The notes under the pieces: generated by a model
Told to the model about the DNA's origin: nothing
What the model saw: only the letters and a program-made list of their open reading frames with translations
Databases searched by the model: none
Part shown: positions 51,232 to 58,482 of the stretch, one piece after another
Position numbering within the stretch: the first letter of the stretch is position 1
Layout of the letters: every line of letters starts with the position of its first letter
Assembly: GCA_963715495.1 (NCBI GenBank)
Contig: OY970247.1
Location: 2,132,219-2,196,218, forward strand
DNA from: an uncultured Solirubrobacterales bacterium
GTDB taxonomy: Bacteria > Actinomycetota > Thermoleophilia > Solirubrobacterales > Solirubrobacteraceae
Reading direction: 5' to 3'
Length of the DNA stretch: 64,000 nucleotides
Made by a program: the position numbers and the translations under genes

Positions 51232-51536
51232 CGTGGAAGAGCGTATTTGTCTCAAATCGCCTGTTCTGTTTCGGAGAAATGTTTCTGACTACACGAGCCC
51301 TATGACTTCGGTAAAAGCCCTGGAAAATCGGCTGGCACCTGACTCAGCGAGCATCATCCATATCTATGTAAGCGCCCCGCTAAAGTCAGCGCAATAGAAT
51401 TTGCTGTATATATTTTTGATGATCGTTTTAATGGTCGGCTTGACTGTAAGATCAGAGCAAGTACGCGATCTAGAGGGTGCTTCGCTTCCGGATCTACCGC
51501 AGACAACACTCTACAATCTCTGAAGAGGCTAGGCCA

Positions 51537-51746
51537 ATGTCAATCCAAGAGATTCAGCGTCAACAGGCAAAGGCGATGCCGCACGCGGACCTGAAGCCCT
51601 ACGCCGGACAGTGGGTTGCCCTCAGAGACGGCTATGTCGTGGCCAGGGATCTTGATAGCGTAGCCCTCCGCAACCAGCCTGAGGTCAAGGAGAGTGACAC
51701 CCTCATGCTCGTACCGGACCAAGACGTCAACGTTCTAATCCTCTAG
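51537..51746 (+). CDS. DUF5678-like small protein
   Basis: YAGQWVAL.DG.VVA motif; follows an AT-rich spacer. Confidence 0.65.
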   Translation: MSIQEIQRQQAKAMPHADLKPYAGQWVALRDGYVVARDLDSVALRNQPEVKESDTLMLVPDQDVNVLIL

Positions 51747-51752
51747 AGCGCC

Positions 51753-52157
51753 GTGCCCTCGGCGACACTCCCGTACTCCAACCCCTTCGGAACAGGGAGC
51801 CGTCCATATCTAGCCCTGACGCTCACAGGCGTCAACAGCACGTCGCACAGCATCGTGGGGCTTCTCGACACGGGTGCCGATATCACGGCGTTGCCGGTAG
51901 GGCACGCTGCGCTCATGGGCTACGGTCTCGAGCTGCTCGAGCAGACAACCATCGGGACCGCGGATGGCCCAGGCGTGGCGTTTCGTGCGATGCGGCAATC
52001 GACCGCCATCGTGGCCGGTTTGCCATCTGTGTCGATCAGCCTGCGGCCGATCTTTGTCCCCGGCGCCCAGACGCCGCTTTGGGGGCGCACCGATGTGATG
52101 CGCCCGTTCAAGGTGCTTTTCGACGATACGGACGAAGCCTTCACGCTCCACTGGTAG
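51753..52157 (+). CDS. Single-domain retropepsin-like (clan AA) aspartyl protease
   Basis: LLDTGADIT catalytic motif, LWGR.D C-terminal motif. Confidence 0.8.
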   Translation: MPSATLPYSNPFGTGSRPYLALTLTGVNSTSHSIVGLLDTGADITALPVGHAALMGYGLELLEQTTIGTADGPGVAFRAMRQSTAIVAGLPSVSISLRPIFVPGAQTPLWGRTDVMRPFKVLFDDTDEAFTLHW

Positions 52158-52212
52158 CCAGTTCGTGGCCCCCTGCCGGTCGTTATGGAGGGACCGGCAA
52201 AGGTTTGCCACA

Positions 52213-53421
52213 ATGAGCGTCGTGACCGACAAGCAGCAGATCAGCAAGGCCCTGGAGGTTGTGATCGACCCCGAGCTGCGACGCTCGATCGTCGAGCTCG
52301 ACATGGTGCGCTCGATCGACGTCTCATCCAACGGCGTCGTCGACGTAACCGTCTCGCTGACCACGCCCGGCTGCCCGATCAAGGGCCACTTCCAGACCGC
52401 GGTCGCGCAGGCCGTCTCAGCGCTGGAGGGGGTGACGCACTGCAACGTGTACTTCGACGTGCTCGACGACACCCAGAAGGCCGCCCTGCAGCAGAAGCTC
52501 GGGCGCGGCAGCCTTCCCGACGGGGCGCTCGCACGGGTCGCCAATGTGCTGTGCGTCGGATCCGGCAAGGGCGGCGTCGGCAAGTCGACGCTGACCGCCA
52601 ATCTCGCCGCGGCGCTGGCCGCCGAAGGCAAGCACGTGGGCATACTCGACGCGGACGTCTGGGGCTACTCGATCCCGCGCATGTACGGGCTCGGATCCAC
52701 CCGCCCACCGGTGTCGGCAGAGCGCAAGATCCTCCCGCTGGAGGCACACGGCGTGAAGGTGATGTCGATCGGCTTCTTCGTCGCCGAGGATGCCGCCGTG
52801 GTCTGGCGCGGGCCGATGCTGCACAAGGCCCTCACCCAGTTCCTGCAGGACGTCGACTGGGGCGTTCTGGACCACCTGCTGATCGACCTGCCGCCAGGCA
52901 CCGGCGACGTCTCGATGACGCTCGCCCAGCTGCTCCCCCAAGCCCGGTTCGCAATCGTCACGACTCCCCAGCCGACCGCCCAGCGGGTCGCCCGGCGCGC
53001 CGCCGAGATGGCGCACAAGGTCTCGCTCGAGATCTGCGGGATCATCGAGAACATGTCCGGCTTCACCACGCCCTCCGGCGAGCGCTTTCAGATCTTCGGC
53101 GAGGGCGGCGGTCAGGAGCTCGCCGACGAGCTCGACGTGCCTTTGCTCGGTAAGGTTCCACTGACGATGCCCCTGCGCGAGCACGCCGATAACGGTGTTC
53201 CGCTCGTGATCGAGGACCCCGACGACCCCGCCTCCCAGGCGATCCGCCACGCCGCCCGCGGCCTGATCGCGATGGCCGCGCCGGCGACGCTACCGGTCCT
53301 GCCGACGCTGCCCATCCTCCCACTGGTTCAGGTCGCCGCCGGAGCGGCAATGGCGCCCGCCGCCGCTTCCGCGCCCGGAGCGGAGCGAAAACCTGCGGGC
53401 ATGTCGCTGCCGATGGCTTAG
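52213..53421 (+). CDS. mrp: Mrp/ApbC/NBP35 Fe-S cluster carrier ATPase with N-terminal MIP18/DUF59 domain
   Basis: DPELRRSIVEL, GSGKGGVGKST, DADVWGYS, VVWRGPML, DLPPGTGD, ENMS. Confidence 0.92.
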   Translation: MSVVTDKQQISKALEVVIDPELRRSIVELDMVRSIDVSSNGVVDVTVSLTTPGCPIKGHFQTAVAQAVSALEGVTHCNVYFDVLDDTQKAALQQKLGRGSLPDGALARVANVLCVGSGKGGVGKSTLTANLAAALAAEGKHVGILDADVWGYSIPRMYGLGSTRPPVSAERKILPLEAHGVKVMSIGFFVAEDAAVVWRGPMLHKALTQFLQDVDWGVLDHLLIDLPPGTGDVSMTLAQLLPQARFAIVTTPQPTAQRVARRAAEMAHKVSLEICGIIENMSGFTTPSGERFQIFGEGGGQELADELDVPLLGKVPLTMPLREHADNGVPLVIEDPDDPASQAIRHAARGLIAMAAPATLPVLPTLPILPLVQVAAGAAMAPAAASAPGAERKPAGMSLPMA

Positions 53422-53500
53422 CCCGCGGTTGCGGGGGCCGATTTTTCCAGCGACATCCTGCTCGTTTGTCAAGCTCAACCTACTGAGAGGATCGTCGTAT

Positions 53501-55027
53501 ATGCCTGTACAGGACCAAGAAGAGGAGCAGCTGGCGACTCCACCGGACGGCGTAGTCGAGATCGACGAACGGCGTGCCAAGATGGAGCGGCTGCGCGCGG
53601 AAGGGATCAACCCGTATCCGCACGTAAGCCTGCCCGATCGCACCCTGATCGCCGAAGTACTCGCCGCGCACGATCCGTCACAGCTCGCGCAGGGTGAGCA
53701 CCCTGAGCTGCGCTACCTGCTTGCCGGCCGTCTGATCTCCAGACGCGGGCATGGCAAGACGTCGTTCCTGGACCTGCGCGACCTGTCGGGATCGATCCAG
53801 ATCGTCGTCCGTTACGACACGCTCGGCGAGGAGTCCTACGACCGGATCATGAGCCTCGACATCGGCGACATCGTCGACGTCGAGGGCTGCGTGTACAAGA
53901 CCCAGCGGGGGCAGCTGGCCCTGGAGGCGAGCGAGTGCACCCTCCTCACCAAGACGCTGCGCCCGCCGCCCGACAAGCATCACGGGCTCGGCGACACCGG
54001 CACGCGCTACCGCTACCGCGAGCTGGACCTGATCGCCAACGACGAGACGCGCGATCTGTTCGTGATGCGCGCGAGGATCGTGGCGGCGATCCGCGGCTGG
54101 CTTGACGAACGCAACTTCGTGGAAGTGGAAACCCCCGCTCTGCAGTCGCTCGCGGGCGGCGCCGGGTCCCGACCGTTCACGACGCACCACAACGCGCTCG
54201 ACCGCGACCTGTACCTGCGCATCTCGGTGGAGCTGTTCCTCAACCGCTGCATCGTGGGGGGCCTGGAGAACGTCTACGACATGGGCAAGGTATTCCGCAA
54301 CGAGGGCATCTCCCCGAAGCACAGCCCGGAGTTCACGATCATCGAGTTCATGATGGCCTACGCCGACTACTACGACGTGGCCACCGCCACCGAAGAGATG
54401 TTCAGAGACGTCGCTCAGCGGGTGCTCGGCAGGACCGAGATCCAGCGGGGCGGAGAGACGATCGACCTGGCCAAGCCGTGGCGGCGGATCACGATGCGCG
54501 AAGCGATGCTCGACGCCACCGGCATCGACTTCATGGGCGAGAACCGCGACGCCGTGACGGCTCAGATGAAGGAGGCGTTGCAGGAACGCATCCACCCGGC
54601 GACGACCTGGGCGGAGCTCGTGCTCGCCGTCTACAGCAAGCTGATCGAGCCGCACATCAACCAGCCGACGCATGTGTTCGACTTTCCCTTGGAGCCGTTC
54701 CCGATCACCAAGCGCCACGCCGAGCACCCCGAGCTGGCCGAGCACTTCGACGCGGTGATCGGCGGCATCGAGCTCGTCAGCGGCGACACCGAGCTGAACG
54801 ACCCCGTCGATCAGTGGCAGCGCTTCGTCGACCAGCGCAAGCGGCGCGCCCTCGACGACGGCGACGTGCCCCACCCCAACGACGAGGAGTACGCGCGCGC
54901 GATCGAGTACGGCTACTCGCCGACCGCCGGCGGCGGGATGGGCGTCGATCGGCTGATCATGATCCTCACCGAACGCGACACGCTGCGCGAGGTGATCCCG
55001 TTCCCGATCGTCAGGGAGCTGAGATGA
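53501..55027 (+). CDS. lysS: Class II lysyl-tRNA synthetase paralogue with anticodon OB-fold and a remodelled amino-acid pocket
   Basis: GRLISRRGHGKTSF, PDKHHGL, EVETP, RPFTTHHNALD, FRNEGIS, PEFT, ELNDP, G.G.DRL; pocket reads EFMMA, EHFD and ELVSGDTE. Confidence 0.88.
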   Translation: MPVQDQEEEQLATPPDGVVEIDERRAKMERLRAEGINPYPHVSLPDRTLIAEVLAAHDPSQLAQGEHPELRYLLAGRLISRRGHGKTSFLDLRDLSGSIQIVVRYDTLGEESYDRIMSLDIGDIVDVEGCVYKTQRGQLALEASECTLLTKTLRPPPDKHHGLGDTGTRYRYRELDLIANDETRDLFVMRARIVAAIRGWLDERNFVEVETPALQSLAGGAGSRPFTTHHNALDRDLYLRISVELFLNRCIVGGLENVYDMGKVFRNEGISPKHSPEFTIIEFMMAYADYYDVATATEEMFRDVAQRVLGRTEIQRGGETIDLAKPWRRITMREAMLDATGIDFMGENRDAVTAQMKEALQERIHPATTWAELVLAVYSKLIEPHINQPTHVFDFPLEPFPITKRHAEHPELAEHFDAVIGGIELVSGDTELNDPVDQWQRFVDQRKRRALDDGDVPHPNDEEYARAIEYGYSPTAGGGMGVDRLIMILTERDTLREVIPFPIVRELR

Positions 55028-56607
55028 GCTCCAACAAGCTCGACCTCGACCCCGGCGTGATCGCGTCTTGCCGGGCGGCCGCCACCCAGATCGCCGGGCA
55101 GGTCGCCGCGGAGATCGATGGCAAGACGACCGTCTCGGTCGAGCGCACGCTCGCGCGCCTGCTGGGCGTGGACGGCGCCAACGAGCTGGACGCGCCGCTG
55201 CCGAACGTGCTCGTCGACCATGTGCGCGACCGCGGCGAGCTGGGCAGCGGCATCGCCTACTGGCTGGGCAACGCGCTCCTGCACGACGAGTCGCCTGGCT
55301 CGCCGCAGCGGATCGCCGAGGCCGTCAACTCGGGTGAGCTCGACCTGTGCGCGCTGCCCCGTGCCCAGGACGACGCGATCCGCGAGCGGATAACCCACGA
55401 GTGCGATCGTCGGCTGGGCGAGATCGGCACGCGTATGGCCGAGCGCCGCGAGCTGCGCGAGCGTCTGGGCGAGCGCCCGCCGCCCCTGCGTTACGTGCTG
55501 ACCGCCACCGGCAACGTCTACGAGGACGTCGTCCATGGGCTCGCCGTGGCAGAGGCCGGCGGGGACATCATCGCGGTGATCAGATCAACCGCGCAGAGCC
55601 TGCTCGACTACGTGCCGTACGGCCCCACGACCGAGGGCTACGGCGGCACGTTCGCCACGCAGGCCAACTTCCGGATCATGCGCACCGCGCTGGACGAGTT
55701 CTCCGAGCAGCACGGCCGCTACGTGCGCCTGTCGAGCTTCTGCTCGGGCCTATGCATGCCGGAGATCGCCGCGATGGGCGCGATCGAGGGCTTTGACAAC
55801 ATGGTCAACGACGCGCTGTACGGGATCCTCTACCGCGACATCAACCCCGTCCGCGGCCTGATCGACCAGCGCGTCTCGCGGATGGTCAACGGCTGGTTCG
55901 GGGTCGTGATCAACACCGGCGAGGACAACTACCTGCGCACCGCCGACGCAATCGAGGCGGCGCCGTCGGTGACCGCCTCGCAGTTCATCAACCGCCAACT
56001 CGCCCTGGACTCGGGCGTGCTCGACGAGCAGATCGCGCTCGGCGACGCGTTCGAGATCGACCCCCCGATAGTCAACAGCCTGCTGTTCGAGTGGGCCCAG
56101 GCGCAGCTCACGCGGGAGCTGTTCCCAGACTGTCCGGTCAAGTACATGCCCCCCACGCGCCACATGGACGGCAACCTGTTCCGTACGCACGCCACCGACT
56201 CGCTGTTCAACCTCGTGACGGTCGCCACCGGACAGGGCATCCAGACGATCGGGGTGCCGACCGAGGGGATCTTCACACCCCACGTGCACGACCGCGTGAT
56301 CGGCCTGGAAAACGCCAACTACGTGTTCGACTCCGCCCGCGACCTCGGCGAGGAGATCGAGTTCAAGCGGGGCGGCATCGTCCAGACGCGCGCCCAGGAG
56401 GTGCTGGCCGGGGCCCACGAGCTGCTGCAGCGGATCGCCGACATCGGTCTGTTCGCGGCGCTCGGGGAGGGCGTGTTCGGCGATGTCCATCGCCACGCCG
56501 ACGACGGTCGCGGGATCGAGGGGATCGTCGAGACCGATGCCGGCTACCTCAACCCCGCGACCGAGCTGATGAGGGGAGCATCATCGTCGTCGCCGAGCCA
56601 TGTCTAG
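55024..56607 (+). CDS. kamD: Lysine 5,6-aminomutase alpha subunit (PLP-binding TIM barrel)
   Basis: TTVSVERT, ATGNVYED, IRSTAQSLLDYVP, SGLCMPEIA, NDALYGIL.RD, NTGEDNY, KYMPPT; ATGA overlap with the LysRS paralogue. Confidence 0.92.
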   Translation: MSSNKLDLDPGVIASCRAAATQIAGQVAAEIDGKTTVSVERTLARLLGVDGANELDAPLPNVLVDHVRDRGELGSGIAYWLGNALLHDESPGSPQRIAEAVNSGELDLCALPRAQDDAIRERITHECDRRLGEIGTRMAERRELRERLGERPPPLRYVLTATGNVYEDVVHGLAVAEAGGDIIAVIRSTAQSLLDYVPYGPTTEGYGGTFATQANFRIMRTALDEFSEQHGRYVRLSSFCSGLCMPEIAAMGAIEGFDNMVNDALYGILYRDINPVRGLIDQRVSRMVNGWFGVVINTGEDNYLRTADAIEAAPSVTASQFINRQLALDSGVLDEQIALGDAFEIDPPIVNSLLFEWAQAQLTRELFPDCPVKYMPPTRHMDGNLFRTHATDSLFNLVTVATGQGIQTIGVPTEGIFTPHVHDRVIGLENANYVFDSARDLGEEIEFKRGGIVQTRAQEVLAGAHELLQRIADIGLFAALGEGVFGDVHRHADDGRGIEGIVETDAGYLNPATELMRGASSSSPSHV

Positions 56608-57469
56608 TCCACCGCCCGCATCCTCCTCGCCGTCCGCATCCTCCTCGCCGTCTCCACCGTCGGCGCAGTCCGCGTCGCCCGTACAATCCGCGTCGCCCGA
56701 GCTCTCCGCAGGCTCCCGCCGAGAGGTCGACCTGGCGCAGGTCAAGCCCTATGCCGATCATCTCGGCGACGGGATCGTCCAGTTCAGCTTCACGCTGCCC
56801 GTCCCCTACGGCCTGGCGGCGCGTAAGGCCGCGCAGGAGCTGGCCGCGAAGATGGGCTTCGAGCACCCCGAGGTCGTCCACTATCAGCGCCTGACCGATG
56901 GATACACGTACTTCGTGATGTTCGGGCAGTGCACAAGCACGGTCGACTACGCGTCGCTTAGCGACGAGGGGTTCGACATCGAGTACATGAGCGAGGACGA
57001 GATCGAAGCGTTCGCGCACGAGCGCATCGGCCGCCCGGTCGTGGTCGTCGGCGCTGCCACCGGCACCGACACGCACAGCGTCGGCATCGACGCGATGCTC
57101 AACCTCAAGGGCTTCCACGGTCACCACGGCCTGGAGGGGTACAAGTCTTTTCAGACGCACAACCTCGGCAGCCAGGTGCCCAACAGCGTGCTCGTCTCCA
57201 GAGCGATCGACCTCGACGCCGACGCGATCCTCGTCTCCCAGACCGTCACCCAGCAGAACCTGCACATCTCAAACCTGACGGAACTCGTCGAGATCGTCGA
57301 AGCGGAGGGGCGGCGCCGGCAGCTGATCCTCACCTGCGGAGGCCCACGCGTATCCAACGAGCTCGCCAAGGAGCTCGGCTACGACGCGGGGTTCTCAAAG
57401 GGAACCTACCCGCATCACGTGGCGAGCTTCATCGTGCGCGAGCTGGCCGCGCGGCTGGCGGACGAGTAG
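56600..57469 (+). CDS. kamE: Lysine 5,6-aminomutase beta subunit (B12-binding), with Ser/Pro-rich N-terminal extension
   Basis: KPYADHLGDGIVQFSFTLP, DTHSVG (DxHxxG), NLKG (PLP Lys), SQTVTQ, CGGPR, GYDAGF. Confidence 0.92.
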   Translation: MSSPPPASSSPSASSSPSPPSAQSASPVQSASPELSAGSRREVDLAQVKPYADHLGDGIVQFSFTLPVPYGLAARKAAQELAAKMGFEHPEVVHYQRLTDGYTYFVMFGQCTSTVDYASLSDEGFDIEYMSEDEIEAFAHERIGRPVVVVGAATGTDTHSVGIDAMLNLKGFHGHHGLEGYKSFQTHNLGSQVPNSVLVSRAIDLDADAILVSQTVTQQNLHISNLTELVEIVEAEGRRRQLILTCGGPRVSNELAKELGYDAGFSKGTYPHHVASFIVRELAARLADE

Positions 57470-57471
57470 TA

Positions 57472-58482
57472 GTGCTGTCGGAGCTGATCGCCTCGGCGCG
57501 GAGGGTGGCACTTGTCGGTCTGGCGAAGAACACCGGCAAGACTGAGACGCTCGCGGCGATCCTGGCGGAGTACGCACAGGCTGGGCGAATCGTGGGAGTC
57601 ACCTCGATCGGCCGCGACGGCGAGGAGCACGACGTGATCGACGCGCGCATCGATAAGCCGCGGATCAATCTTCAGGCGGGCAGCCTCGTGGCGAGCACGG
57701 GGGCGCTCCTACGGTCGAGCGGCGTCGCGCACGAGCGGCTGGCACAGACCGGGATGAGGACCCCACTTGGTGAAGTCGTCGTCGCCAGGCTCTCGGAGCG
57801 GGGGGCCGTCGAAGTCGCCGGCCCGAGCGCAGCCGAGGACGTACTCGCCGTGAGTGAAACGATGGCGGGCCTCGGCGCCGAGCAGGTGCTGATCGACGGT
57901 GCGATCGACCGCCGCGCGGCCTCCTCGCCTGAGGTCGCCGACGGCCTCGTGATGGCCACGGGCGCGATCCTCGACGAGGACATCGAGCGAGTCGTGGCGG
58001 CTACGAAGGACGCGGTCGATCTGGTCAGGCTGCCCGAAGCCGAGGACCGCGTGCCCGAGGACGAGCGGGTCCTGCTCGCACGGCAGCTGGTCCTGAACAG
58101 CGAGCCCGCGGAGATAGCCGCGCTGCTGCGAGAGCACCCGCGAGCGAGCACGCTCGTTGCAGACGGAGCTCTCGGCGAGCGCTTTCTCGAGGGCCTGCTG
58201 ACGGCTCGAACCGAGCGGGCCGGACGCACGCTGAAGATCGTCGGCGGCGACCCGACGAAGGTGTTCCTATCGCGCCGTGGCCCAGACTGGTATCGGCGTC
58301 AGGGGCTTGAAATCGAGGTCCTGCGCACGATCGAACTGAAGGCGCTCACGGTCAACCCTGTGGCGCCGCAATCGCACCGCTTTGATTCAAAGCGGCTACG
58401 CGGGCTGCTCGAGACGGCCATCCCGGACATACCCGTCCTGGACGTGCTCGACCAGAGCTACCACGCCACGCCCGGGTCCTGA
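57472..58482 (+). CDS. KamB-like accessory protein of the 5,6-aminomutase (P-loop-like)
   Basis: LVGLAKNTGKTETL, TSIGRDGE, TPLGEV, VEVAGP, IDGAIDRRA..SP.VADG..ATGA; this family sits next to kamDE in lysine-fermentation clusters. Confidence 0.72.
   Translation: MLSELIASARRVALVGLAKNTGKTETLAAILAEYAQAGRIVGVTSIGRDGEEHDVIDARIDKPRINLQAGSLVASTGALLRSSGVAHERLAQTGMRTPLGEVVVARLSERGAVEVAGPSAAEDVLAVSETMAGLGAEQVLIDGAIDRRAASSPEVADGLVMATGAILDEDIERVVAATKDAVDLVRLPEAEDRVPEDERVLLARQLVLNSEPAEIAALLREHPRASTLVADGALGERFLEGLLTARTERAGRTLKIVGGDPTKVFLSRRGPDWYRRQGLEIEVLRTIELKALTVNPVAPQSHRFDSKRLRGLLETAIPDIPVLDVLDQSYHATPGS

What the first reader, a model, noticed from the sequence alone, without database searches (positions are those of the whole stretch)
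54210..54960. Amino-acid pocket of the LysRS paralogue is systematically rewritten
Seen, compared with recalled E. coli LysS/LysU motifs: RIAPELYLKR becomes RISVELFLNR, HNPEFTMMELY becomes HSPEFTIIEFM (Tyr280 to Met, codon 54350), SPLA becomes FPIT, DRFE becomes EHFD, EIGNGFSE becomes ELVSGDTE (Asn424 to Ser; Phe426 to Asp, codon 54785), GLGIG becomes GGGMG, and the anticodon-domain TGE becomes RGQ. The motif-2 Arg (FRNE), the three substrate Glu residues and the motif-3 Arg remain. Established: Tyr280, Asn424 and Phe426 line the lysine side-chain pocket. Inference: ATP chemistry is kept but the pocket is reshaped, and the new Asp could bind an amine at C5 rather than C6, matching the mutase product.
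Basis: partly seen in the sequence, partly recalled or inferred. Interest (0 to 1): 0.75.

Follow-up and report, generated by a model that had tools for sequence, protein, structure and literature searches.

The report
Rewired LysRS copy paired with aminomutase
A second, full-length lysyl-tRNA synthetase whose lysine pocket is rebuilt is welded to a B12 lysine 5,6-aminomutase in one soil actinobacterial genus and in several phage-like genomes. It probably loads the mutase's lysine isomer rather than lysine, and I found no description of such a pairing in the papers searched.

Summary
The gene at 53501-55027 is a complete class II LysRS. It keeps G216, E240, R262, E278, E428 and the motif-3 Arg (E. 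coli numbering) but carries Y280M (54350), N424S (54779) and F426D (54785).

This is not lineage background. The genome has a canonical LysRS elsewhere, and 26 of 26 near-complete genomes of the genus have a LysRS match to it. Among 144 other LysRS rows, none has Ser at 424 and 143 are aromatic at 426.

- All 83 orthologues carry M/S/D, and all 80 related loci keep LysRS'-kamD-kamE-kamB wherever the contig reaches.
- The same pocket sits beside kamDE in a second cluster of this genome and in three phage-like lineages.
- Three genus members swap kamDEB for a diaminobutyrate-type transaminase, and their LysRS' switches to L280/A219.
- The altered-pocket enzymes form one clade, and their KamD forms its own clade.

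My best reading (about 0.45) is a synthetase retuned to its partner's diamino acid (2,5-diaminohexanoate), probably still acting on tRNA-Lys. No biochemistry, acceptor or pocket geometry was tested. The main rival is an analogue-proof lysine enzyme. The same window's operon was noted earlier in this scan (e1-5279055).

The parts
53501..55027 (+). LysRS' : full-length class II LysRS paralogue (508 aa; ATG start after GAGAGGA)
   Evidence: It matches Pfam tRNA-synt_2 and the OB-fold tRNA_anti-codon domain. TIGR00499 scores 498.5 against a cut-off of 427.6, and EpmA scores 186 against 286.9. It is 37-44% identical to E. coli and housekeeping LysRS. The AlphaFold model's best Foldseek matches are LysRS-lysine complexes.
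53720..53947 (+). OB-fold anticodon-binding domain, kept intact
   Evidence: PF01336 covers residues 74-149. R76, R77, K81, F84, D89 and Q95 (E. coli numbering) are invariant in 83 orthologues. The same Arg/Phe/Gln columns are invariant across the phage-like copies. dN/dS is 0.27.
54218..54247 (+). RISVELFLNR (canonical RIAPELYLKR); E240 equivalent kept, A238S and K244N
   Evidence: K244 is invariant in 144 of 144 other LysRS rows and is N in 9 rows of the altered clade.
54350..54352 (+). Met284, equivalent of Tyr280
   Evidence: ATG. It is M in 83 of 83 orthologues and in 6 of 6 phage-like proteins of these lineages, but L in the 4 L-type copies (3 shown beside the transaminase).
54698..54709 (+). 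FPIT (canonical SPLA); S397F
   Evidence: Position 397 is S or T in 122 of 144 other LysRS rows and F or W in 14 of 20 altered-clade rows.
54779..54793 (+). Ser427-Gly-Asp429-Thr-Glu431, equivalents of N424, G425, F426, S427, E428
   Evidence: S and D are invariant in 83 orthologues and E428 is kept. Neither S424 nor D426 occurs in 144 other LysRS rows.
54929..54952 (+). GGGMGVDR, motif-3 region (L474G; motif-3 Arg484 kept)
55024..56607 (+). kamD, lysine 5,6-aminomutase alpha subunit; its start overlaps the LysRS' stop (ATGA)
   Evidence: NF052384 scores 763 against a cut-off of 600, and PF09043 matches. It belongs to a separate KamD clade shared with the phage-like copies (branch length 0.88, support 100).
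56600..57469 (+). kamE, B12-binding beta subunit (8-nt overlap with kamD)
   Evidence: NF052385 scores 352.6 against a cut-off of 280; OAM_dimer and B12-binding domains match.
57472..58482 (+). kamB-like reactivase subunit
   Evidence: NF052386 scores 278 against a cut-off of 210. It is present in all bacterial modules and was not found near the module in the phage-like loci examined.
52210..53421 (+). Mrp/ApbC Fe-S carrier gene: a conserved upstream neighbour, probably not part of the module
   Evidence: It also flanks the transaminase variant of the locus. A weak terminator-like site lies at 53426-53440.

Best explanation
The gene encodes a neofunctionalised class II lysyl-tRNA synthetase, here called LysRS'. 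It keeps ATP chemistry, alpha-amino/carboxylate binding and the tRNA anticodon-binding domain. Its side-chain pocket no longer fits lysine.

It works as a make-and-activate pair with the translationally coupled, B12/PLP-dependent lysine 5,6-aminomutase KamDE. With no KamA-family lysine 2,3-aminomutase found in the genome, KamDE would turn alpha-lysine into 2,5-diaminohexanoate. LysRS' would adenylate that isomer and most likely esterify it to tRNA-Lys or a tRNA-like acceptor.

Shown: the residue changes, their invariance, the co-inheritance with kamDE in bacteria and phage-like genomes, and the pocket switch when the partner enzyme changes.

Inferred: the substrate identity, the role of Asp429 and Met284, the tRNA acceptor, and what the product is used for.
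For: 1. Pocket: Y280M, N424S, F426D, S397F, L474G and K244N, with the catalytic and alpha-group residues kept. S424 and D426 are absent from 144 other LysRS rows.
2. Purifying selection: M/S/D are invariant in 83 orthologues. dN/dS is 0.16 in the catalytic domain and 0.27 in the OB domain.
3. Non-redundancy: a canonical LysRS exists in this genome, and 26 of 26 near-complete genomes of the genus have a LysRS match to it.
4. Linkage: there is an ATGA overlap with kamD. All 80 loci keep Mrp-LysRS'-KamD-KamE-KamB as far as the contig reaches. A second kamD-kamE-LysRS' cluster lies in the same genome.
5. Independent recurrence: copies only 41-55% identical, with the same M/S/D/E pocket, sit directly before kamD-kamE in phage-like contigs L170, L213, L214, L209 and L206 (phage family hits).
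6. Module co-evolution: KamD of these modules forms its own clade, apart from 29 actinobacterial KamD that have no LysRS within about 8 kb.
7. Natural swap: in three genus members the same locus carries a diaminobutyrate-transaminase-family gene instead of kamDEB, and LysRS' has L280 and A219 instead of M280 and S219.
8. The altered-pocket enzymes are one clade (support 98) with diversified pockets (MSDE, LSDE, Q240-SSDE, FSCD, FGGD, ITVC), which suggests exploration of several substrates.
9. No KamA/EpmB family gene was found in the genome, so beta-lysine is unlikely to be the mutase substrate.
10. Anticodon-binding residues are invariant, including in the phage-like copies.
Against: - No assay, docking or pocket geometry was possible. 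The AlphaFold model has low confidence in the active-site loops and its coordinates were not readable.
- From general chemistry (my knowledge, not tested here): delta-amino acyl adenylates and esters such as ornithine cyclise readily to lactams, so a stable 2,5-diaminohexanoyl-tRNA is chemically awkward.
- No dedicated tRNA was found. Only tRNA-Lys CTT and TTT exist in the genome, and none lie in the window or in the phage-like loci.
- No MprF-type or FemAB-type user of an aminoacyl-tRNA is in the genome, so the downstream use is unknown.
- Relatives of this KamDEB clade exist without an adjacent LysRS'. Genus g312 has a different-pocket copy elsewhere. G676 has none, though it is only 82% complete.
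- One phage variant (L168) has LysRS' without kamDE nearby.
- Changes at Y280 and F426 are also known to give lysine-analogue resistance while keeping lysine activity (PMC12546413, citing Ataide 2007).
- Met at 280 alone occurs in a few ordinary LysRS.
Confidence: 0.45

Rival explanations
1. Analogue-proof lysine enzyme. LysRS' still charges tRNA-Lys with lysine, and its pocket was remodelled to exclude the lysine isomer that KamDE produces. It would then be a self-resistance or host-takeover copy, like the resistant synthetase genes found in antibiotic gene clusters.
For: - It is a second synthetase copy placed next to an enzyme that makes a substrate analogue.
- The changed positions 280 and 426 are the ones where engineered changes make E. 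coli LysRS resistant to thialysine (PMC12546413).
- E428, the epsilon-amine partner, is kept.
- The tRNA-binding domain is kept.
- It scores above the curated LysRS cut-off.
Against: - The changes are drastic (aromatic to Asp; Asn to Ser), not conservative.
- The clade includes members that have lost both acidic pocket residues, or E240.
- The pocket co-varies with a partner that makes a much shorter diamino acid, which is not an obvious LysRS poison.
- The sensitive canonical LysRS is kept alongside it.
- Host and phage messages share one tRNA-Lys pool, so a phage gains no obvious selective advantage.
Confidence: 0.2
2. Same substrate, different acceptor. LysRS' activates the mutase product but passes it to a protein, a small molecule or its own side-chain amine (lactam formation) rather than to tRNA. 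This would be an EpmA-like ligase or amide synthetase.
For: - The aminomutase-plus-LysRS-paralogue logic of EpmB/EpmA (bioRxiv 10.64898/2026.07.07.736966).
- No dedicated tRNA and no known aminoacyl-tRNA-using transferase was found.
- The lactam-forming tendency of delta-amino acyl adenylates (general chemistry, my knowledge).
Against: - EpmA lost the anticodon-binding domain. Here that domain and its Arg/Phe/Gln anticodon-contact residues are invariant in bacteria and phage-like copies and are under purifying selection.
- The EpmA model scores below its cut-off.
Confidence: 0.15
3. Non-catalytic partner. LysRS' acts as a regulatory, substrate-sensing or reactivating subunit of KamDE, in the way HisZ serves HisG, and makes no aminoacyl product of its own.
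For: - Translational coupling and strict co-inheritance.
- Phage-like modules lack KamB but always carry LysRS'.
Against: All catalytic residues (motif 2 Arg, motif 3 Arg, E240, E278) and the tRNA-binding residues are invariant. That is more conservation than a regulatory role would need. LysRS' also pairs with an unrelated transaminase.
Confidence: 0.07
4. An ordinary redundant LysRS duplicate whose pocket differences are neutral drift, with the neighbourhood a coincidence.
For: It passes the NCBIfam LysRS equivalog cut-off. Many bacteria carry two LysRS genes.
Against: The substitutions are invariant in 83 orthologues and unseen in 144 other LysRS rows. The gene pairing recurs in distant lineages.
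Confidence: 0.03

Closest known systems
EpmA (PoxA/GenX) with EpmB: the EF-P beta-lysylation system
   Same: A class II LysRS paralogue is teamed with a lysine aminomutase. The mutase makes a lysine isomer and the paralogue activates it with ATP and ligates it to a macromolecule.
   Different: EpmA lacks the anticodon-binding domain and acts on EF-P. Its partner is a radical-SAM 2,3-aminomutase. Here the enzyme is full length with an intact OB domain, the partner is a B12/PLP 5,6-aminomutase, no KamA/EpmB family gene is in the genome, and the EpmA model scores below its cut-off.
Canonical class II LysRS (E. coli LysS/LysU; TIGR00499)
   Same: Same architecture, class II motifs, ATP and alpha-group residues, and anticodon-binding residues. 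It scores above the curated cut-off.
   Different: Y280, N424 and F426 are replaced, as are S397, L474 and K244. It is never the only LysRS in the genome.
PylRS with PylBCD (pyrrolysine)
   Same: A synthetase for a lysine-derived non-standard amino acid is encoded beside the enzymes that make it, one of which (PylB) is a lysine mutase.
   Different: The pyrrolysine system has a dedicated suppressor tRNA and an unrelated synthetase lineage. No dedicated tRNA was found here.
Self-resistance synthetase copies in antibiotic gene clusters (for example mupirocin-resistant IleRS, indolmycin-resistant TrpRS; from my knowledge)
   Same: An extra synthetase gene sits beside genes that make a compound resembling its substrate.
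   Different: As I recall, those copies keep the cognate amino-acid pocket. This one has non-conservative changes in it, and its relatives show a variety of pockets.
LysX (MprF-LysRS fusion of mycobacteria)
   Same: A second LysRS in Actinomycetota dedicated to a non-translational use of the aminoacyl-tRNA.
   Different: LysX has a canonical pocket and a fused lipid-transferase domain, as in the G676 copy. Here there is no such domain, none is found in the genome, and the LysX model scores 440 against a cut-off of 742.

Membership tests
Class II lysine-tRNA ligase (TIGR00499 / PRK00484) | Profile score above the curated cut-off over the full length | tested here: met
   TIGR00499 scores 498.5 against 427.6, and NF001756 scores 553 against 468.
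Class II lysine-tRNA ligase (TIGR00499 / PRK00484) | Class II catalytic residues (motif 2 Arg, motif 3 Arg) and alpha-group binders G216, E240, E278 | tested here: met
   All are present and invariant in 83 orthologues.
Class II lysine-tRNA ligase (TIGR00499 / PRK00484) | OB-fold anticodon-binding domain with conserved Arg/Phe/Gln | tested here: met
   PF01336 matches. R76, R77, K81, F84 and Q95 are invariant.
Class II lysine-tRNA ligase (TIGR00499 / PRK00484) | Lysine side-chain pocket Y280, N424, aromatic 426, E428 | tested here: not met
   The residues are M, S, D, E. Three of four are replaced, against 0 of 144 other LysRS rows with S424 or D426.
Class II lysine-tRNA ligase (TIGR00499 / PRK00484) | Forms Lys-tRNA-Lys and serves translation | not testable with these tools
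   This needs enzyme assays or complementation. A canonical copy coexists in this genome, and 26 of 26 near-complete genomes of the genus have a match to it.
EpmA / PoxA / GenX | Catalytic domain only, with no anticodon-binding domain | tested here: not met
   The OB domain is present.
EpmA / PoxA / GenX | Profile score above the cut-off | tested here: not met
   TIGR00462 scores 186 against 286.9.
EpmA / PoxA / GenX | Partner lysine 2,3-aminomutase (EpmB, KamA family) | tested here: not met
   TIGR00238 has no match in the 3.17-Mb single-contig genome, while the control rings in 9 of 14 genomes.
LysX (MprF-LysRS) | Fused or co-encoded lysyl-phosphatidylglycerol synthase domain | tested here: not met
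   PF09924 has no match in the genome, and NF002821 scores 440 against 742.
Lysine 5,6-aminomutase KamDE (the coupled partner) | Alpha and beta subunit profiles above their cut-offs, with a B12-binding domain | tested here: met
   NF052384 scores 763 against 600, NF052385 scores 352.6 against 280, and PF02310 matches. Substrate stereochemistry was not tested.
Dedicated non-standard amino-acid coding system (PylRS-like) | A dedicated tRNA encoded with the synthetase | tested here: not met
   There is no tRNA in the window or in the phage-like loci. The genome has only tRNA-Lys CTT and TTT and no suppressor.
Self-resistance synthetase paralogue | Keeps the cognate amino-acid specificity while excluding the analogue | not testable with these tools
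   Sequence alone cannot decide. Non-conservative pocket changes and clade diversity argue against it.

The most novel reading that the evidence does not exclude
LysRS' is a natural synthetase for a non-standard amino acid, 2,5-diaminohexanoate (5-methylornithine), which is isobaric with lysine. It loads this onto ordinary tRNA-Lys. Bacteria of this genus, and cells infected by the phages that carry the module, would then place a lysine isomer at lysine codons or feed it into an unknown tRNA-dependent pathway. Sister enzymes of the clade would do the same for other diamino acids such as 2,4-diaminobutyrate.
Probability: 0.2. Interest if true: 0.95.

Novelty: new variant of a known kind. Interest (0 to 1): 0.8.

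Why it matters
- If the enzyme activates the mutase product, it would be a naturally evolved full-length synthetase for a lysine isomer. It would also be a B12-dependent counterpart of the EpmA/EpmB logic that kept its tRNA-binding domain.
- Its presence in phage-like genomes suggests a new kind of translational or metabolic manipulation of the host.
- The clade's varied pockets would offer ready-made scaffolds for genetic code expansion with diamino acids.
- Because the isomer has the same mass as lysine, any incorporation into proteins would have been missed by routine proteomics.
- If instead it is an analogue-proof LysRS, it points to 2,5-diaminohexanoate as a natural antimetabolite.

Tried and rejected
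- Literature: three full-text searches linking LysRS or aminoacyl-tRNA synthetases with 5,6-aminomutase or diaminohexanoate found nothing relevant. The primary papers on the LysRS pocket (Ataide 2007) are not held, so the roles of Y280, N424 and F426 rest on my memory plus a review (PMC12546413).
- Viral collections: IMG/VR scans with the window protein, the phage-like protein and an alignment found no member of the clade; all 34 viral LysRS found are canonical. A GenBank phage search found matches of 37% identity or less.
- Other pocket types: a search for the Q240-type relative (P0133) in 401 Actinomycetota genomes found nothing. Contexts of P0126, P0133, P0144 and P0192 could not be looked up under the tool rules.
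- Regulation: no riboswitch or T-box lies upstream, and no sigma-70-like promoter was found.
- Users and acceptors: no tRNA in the window, no MprF C-domain or FemAB family in the genome, and no KamA/EpmB.
- Structure: the AlphaFold2 model scored pLDDT 75.8, with the active-site loops below 50.
- Phage records: the full records behind the phage-like loci are not held, so their tRNA content and hosts are unknown.
- Rejected readings: EpmA-type, LysX-type and plain duplicate (see the membership tests).
Full report
**What is at the coordinates**

The ORF at 53501-55027 (+) has an ATG start behind GAGAGGA. It encodes a 508-aa protein with a class II core (PF00152) and an N-terminal OB-fold anticodon-binding domain (PF01336). 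It scores above NCBIfam's LysRS equivalog cut-off (498.5 against 427.6). It scores below the cut-offs for EpmA (186 against 286.9) and LysX (440 against 742).

Its stop overlaps the start of kamD (ATGA at 55024-55027). The run continues with three further genes, all above their curated cut-offs:
- kamD, 55024-56607
- kamE, 56600-57469
- a kamB-like reactivase gene, 57472-58482

An Mrp/ApbC gene lies upstream. It is followed by a weak terminator-like site. No riboswitch or T-box was found.

**Checking the observation**

I fetched E. coli K-12 lysS and aligned it with the window protein. The named codons are exact: 54350 ATG is the Tyr280 equivalent and 54785 GAC is the Phe426 equivalent. In addition, 54779 AGC is the Asn424 equivalent. 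G216, E240, R262, E278, E428 and the motif-3 Arg are kept.

One item is not paralogue-specific. In 'TGE to RGQ', the Arg is also in the housekeeping enzyme. The Gln is in 78 of 83 orthologues but not in the genome's second divergent copy.

**Is it lineage background?**

No. The 3.17-Mb genome has three class II LysRS genes:
- A canonical one, reading RIATELYLKR, EFY, EIANAFSE.
- The window copy.
- A second divergent copy with the same M/S/D/E pocket.

In a sample of the genus, 26 of 26 near-complete genomes have a LysRS match to the canonical copy. Most have both a canonical copy (66% identity or more) and a divergent one (45-55%).

I scored the window protein against one representative per 50%-identity cluster of 1.84 billion proteins and took the best 150. 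Adding local copies gives 144 rows outside the paralogue clade. In these rows, position 426 is F, Y or W in 143. Position 424 is Asn in 130 and never Ser, Gly or Thr. Position 280 is Tyr in 134.

**Conservation**

All 83 orthologues recovered carry M280, S424 and D426, together with the kept catalytic residues. The OB-fold residues R76, R77, K81, F84, D89 and Q95 are invariant. Pairwise dN/dS is 0.16 for the catalytic domain and 0.27 for the OB domain. Both domains are therefore under purifying selection.

An AlphaFold2 model has mean pLDDT 75.8, with the active-site loops below 50. It matches LysRS-lysine complexes best.

**Linkage with kamDE**

All 80 related loci from species genomes (Solirubrobacteraceae MAGs, 77-92% identity) keep Mrp-LysRS'-KamD-KamE-KamB wherever the contig reaches. 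This genome also holds a second cluster, kamD2-kamE2-LysRS'2.

By contrast, 30 kamDE loci from other Actinomycetota families have no LysRS within about 8 kb. Their KamD is 45-50% identical to ours. In the order-level sample, this KamD type occurs in only 3 of 93 genera.

**Recurrence in phage-like genomes**

- **Family 1 (proteins P0273, P0277, P0278; loci L214, L213, L170).** The proteins are 41-47% identical to ours and have the same M/S/D/E pocket. Each lies directly upstream of kamD and kamE, in contigs of dense same-strand small ORFs. Those contigs carry tail-fibre and collar protein families, HNH and AAA genes; ThyX is in the related L168/L169 loci.
- **A sibling variant (L168).** It has LysRS' without kamDE nearby.
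- **Lineage 2 (P0343, locus L209).** The order is LysRS', an 86-aa ORF, kamD, an HNH gene, kamE. Erf and ParB-like phage families lie nearby.
- **Lineage 3 (P0130, locus L206).** LysRS' is followed by a kamD that is 70% identical to ours, cut off by the contig end.

KamD from all these modules forms a clade. A branch of length 0.88 (support 100) separates it from 29 ordinary actinobacterial KamD. The two genes have therefore travelled and evolved together.

**A natural swap**

Three members of the genus lack kamD: G627, G507 and G705. At the same Mrp-to-epimerase locus they carry LysRS' coupled to a class III aminotransferase of the diaminobutyrate-2-oxoglutarate transaminase family. TIGR00709 scores 405 against a cut-off of 401.6.

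In these copies the pocket reads L280 instead of M280 and A219 instead of S219. All 85 bacterial and 6 phage-like M-type proteins (most with kamDE shown beside them; P0139's locus L168 lacks it) have M280 and S219. The pocket thus tracks the partner enzyme. This is the strongest comparative argument that LysRS' recognises its partner's product.

**A wider clade**

On a tree of 85 LysRS sequences, the altered-pocket enzymes form one clade (SH-aLRT 98). The housekeeping enzymes of the order lie in the other, canonical part of the tree.

| Pocket (positions 280/424/426/428) | Where seen |
|---|---|
| M-S-D-E | window copy, second copy, phage-like lineages |
| L-S-D-E | the transaminase-linked copies |
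| S-S-D-E or S-S-D-D, with E240Q | P0133, P0144 |
| F-S-C-D | P0126 |
| F-G-G-D | genus g312 |
| I-T-V-C | P0192 |

Genomes of genus g312 carry the same KamDEB clade, with the F-G-G-D enzyme unlinked from it. G676 has kamDEB but only canonical LysRS and a LysX; it is 82% complete.

**Mechanism**

No KamA/EpmB-family gene is in the genome. Beta-lysine is therefore an unlikely substrate, which leaves alpha-lysine and the product 2,5-diaminohexanoate. That 5,6-aminomutase accepts DL-lysine is from my memory of the enzyme literature and is not tested here.

Keeping G216, E240, R262 and E278 argues for an L-alpha-amino acid activated with ATP. Keeping E428 and gaining Asp at 426 argues for a cationic side chain held nearer to C-alpha. 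Met at 280 and Gly at 474 would make room for a terminal methyl. These atomic roles are inference.

The invariant anticodon-binding residues argue for a tRNA-Lys-like acceptor.

Against this reading:
- Delta-amino acyl esters tend to form lactams (general chemistry).
- No dedicated tRNA exists.
- No MprF-type or FemAB-type user was found.

**Rivals**

The main rival is a lysine-keeping, analogue-excluding enzyme. Positions 280 and 426 are where thialysine-resistance changes map (PMC12546413). However, the changes here are non-conservative, the clade's pockets are varied, and the pocket co-varies with a transaminase partner.

An EpmA-like non-tRNA ligase is weakened by the conserved OB domain (EpmA background: bioRxiv 10.64898/2026.07.07.736966). 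A purely regulatory subunit and a neutral duplicate are both unlikely, given the invariance of the catalytic residues.

**Novelty and limits**

I found no paper describing a LysRS paralogue linked to 5,6-aminomutase. In logic the system is closest to EpmA/EpmB, but it fails that family's defining features.

Nothing here is biochemical. The substrate, the acceptor and the biological purpose, in the bacteria and especially in the phage-like genomes, remain open.

This report agrees with it and extends it.

Noticed in passing
outside the window: G000:C1:2319500-2332600 (locus L151): This is the second module, kamD2-kamE2-LysRS'2. Next to it on the opposite strand are a 514-aa protein with only an ArgRS-type class I catalytic-domain match, a methyltransferase, and LysA-like and DapD-like genes, with a DapC-like gene beyond them on the + strand. 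A P450 lies just downstream. It looks like a small biosynthetic cluster built around lysine-pathway paralogues and two synthetase-like proteins.
   Followed up: partly
loci L165 (G627), L211 (G507), L212 (G705): In three genomes of the same genus, kamDEB is replaced by a diaminobutyrate-transaminase-family gene at the same locus. The LysRS' there has L280 and A219.
   Followed up: yes
loci L156-L158, L166 (genus g312): A further LysRS paralogue with pocket F280/G424/G426/D428 lies between prmC/lgt-like genes and an SDR gene, far from the kamDEB of the same genomes.
   Followed up: partly
locus L209:12858-13310: An HNH endonuclease gene is inserted between kamD and kamE in one phage-like contig, and an 86-aa ORF sits between LysRS' and kamD.
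   Followed up: no
loci L168, L170, L213, L214: In the phage-like family the LysRS'-kamDE module sits downstream of large proteins with Acb1 and cREC_REC domain hits and an AAA ATPase, among many small ORFs. This may be an accessory or counter-defence region.
   Followed up: no
window 51477-52157: Two small ORFs lie upstream of the Mrp gene. The second contains an LLDTGAD motif reminiscent of retropepsin-like aspartic proteases. No family search was run.
   Followed up: no
outside the window: G000:C1:2697481-2697576, 1972917-1973009, 1274475-1274554: ARAGORN reports three odd tRNA calls: one with a four-base anticodon (ggag), a 93-nt tRNA-Gly(acc), and a second, 80-nt tRNA-His. They may be false calls.
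   Followed up: no
proteins P0133, P0144, P0192, P0126 (no loci): Other members of the altered-pocket LysRS clade have lost E240 (Gln) or both acidic side-chain binders (I-T-V-C). Their genomic neighbours could not be looked up.
   Followed up: partly
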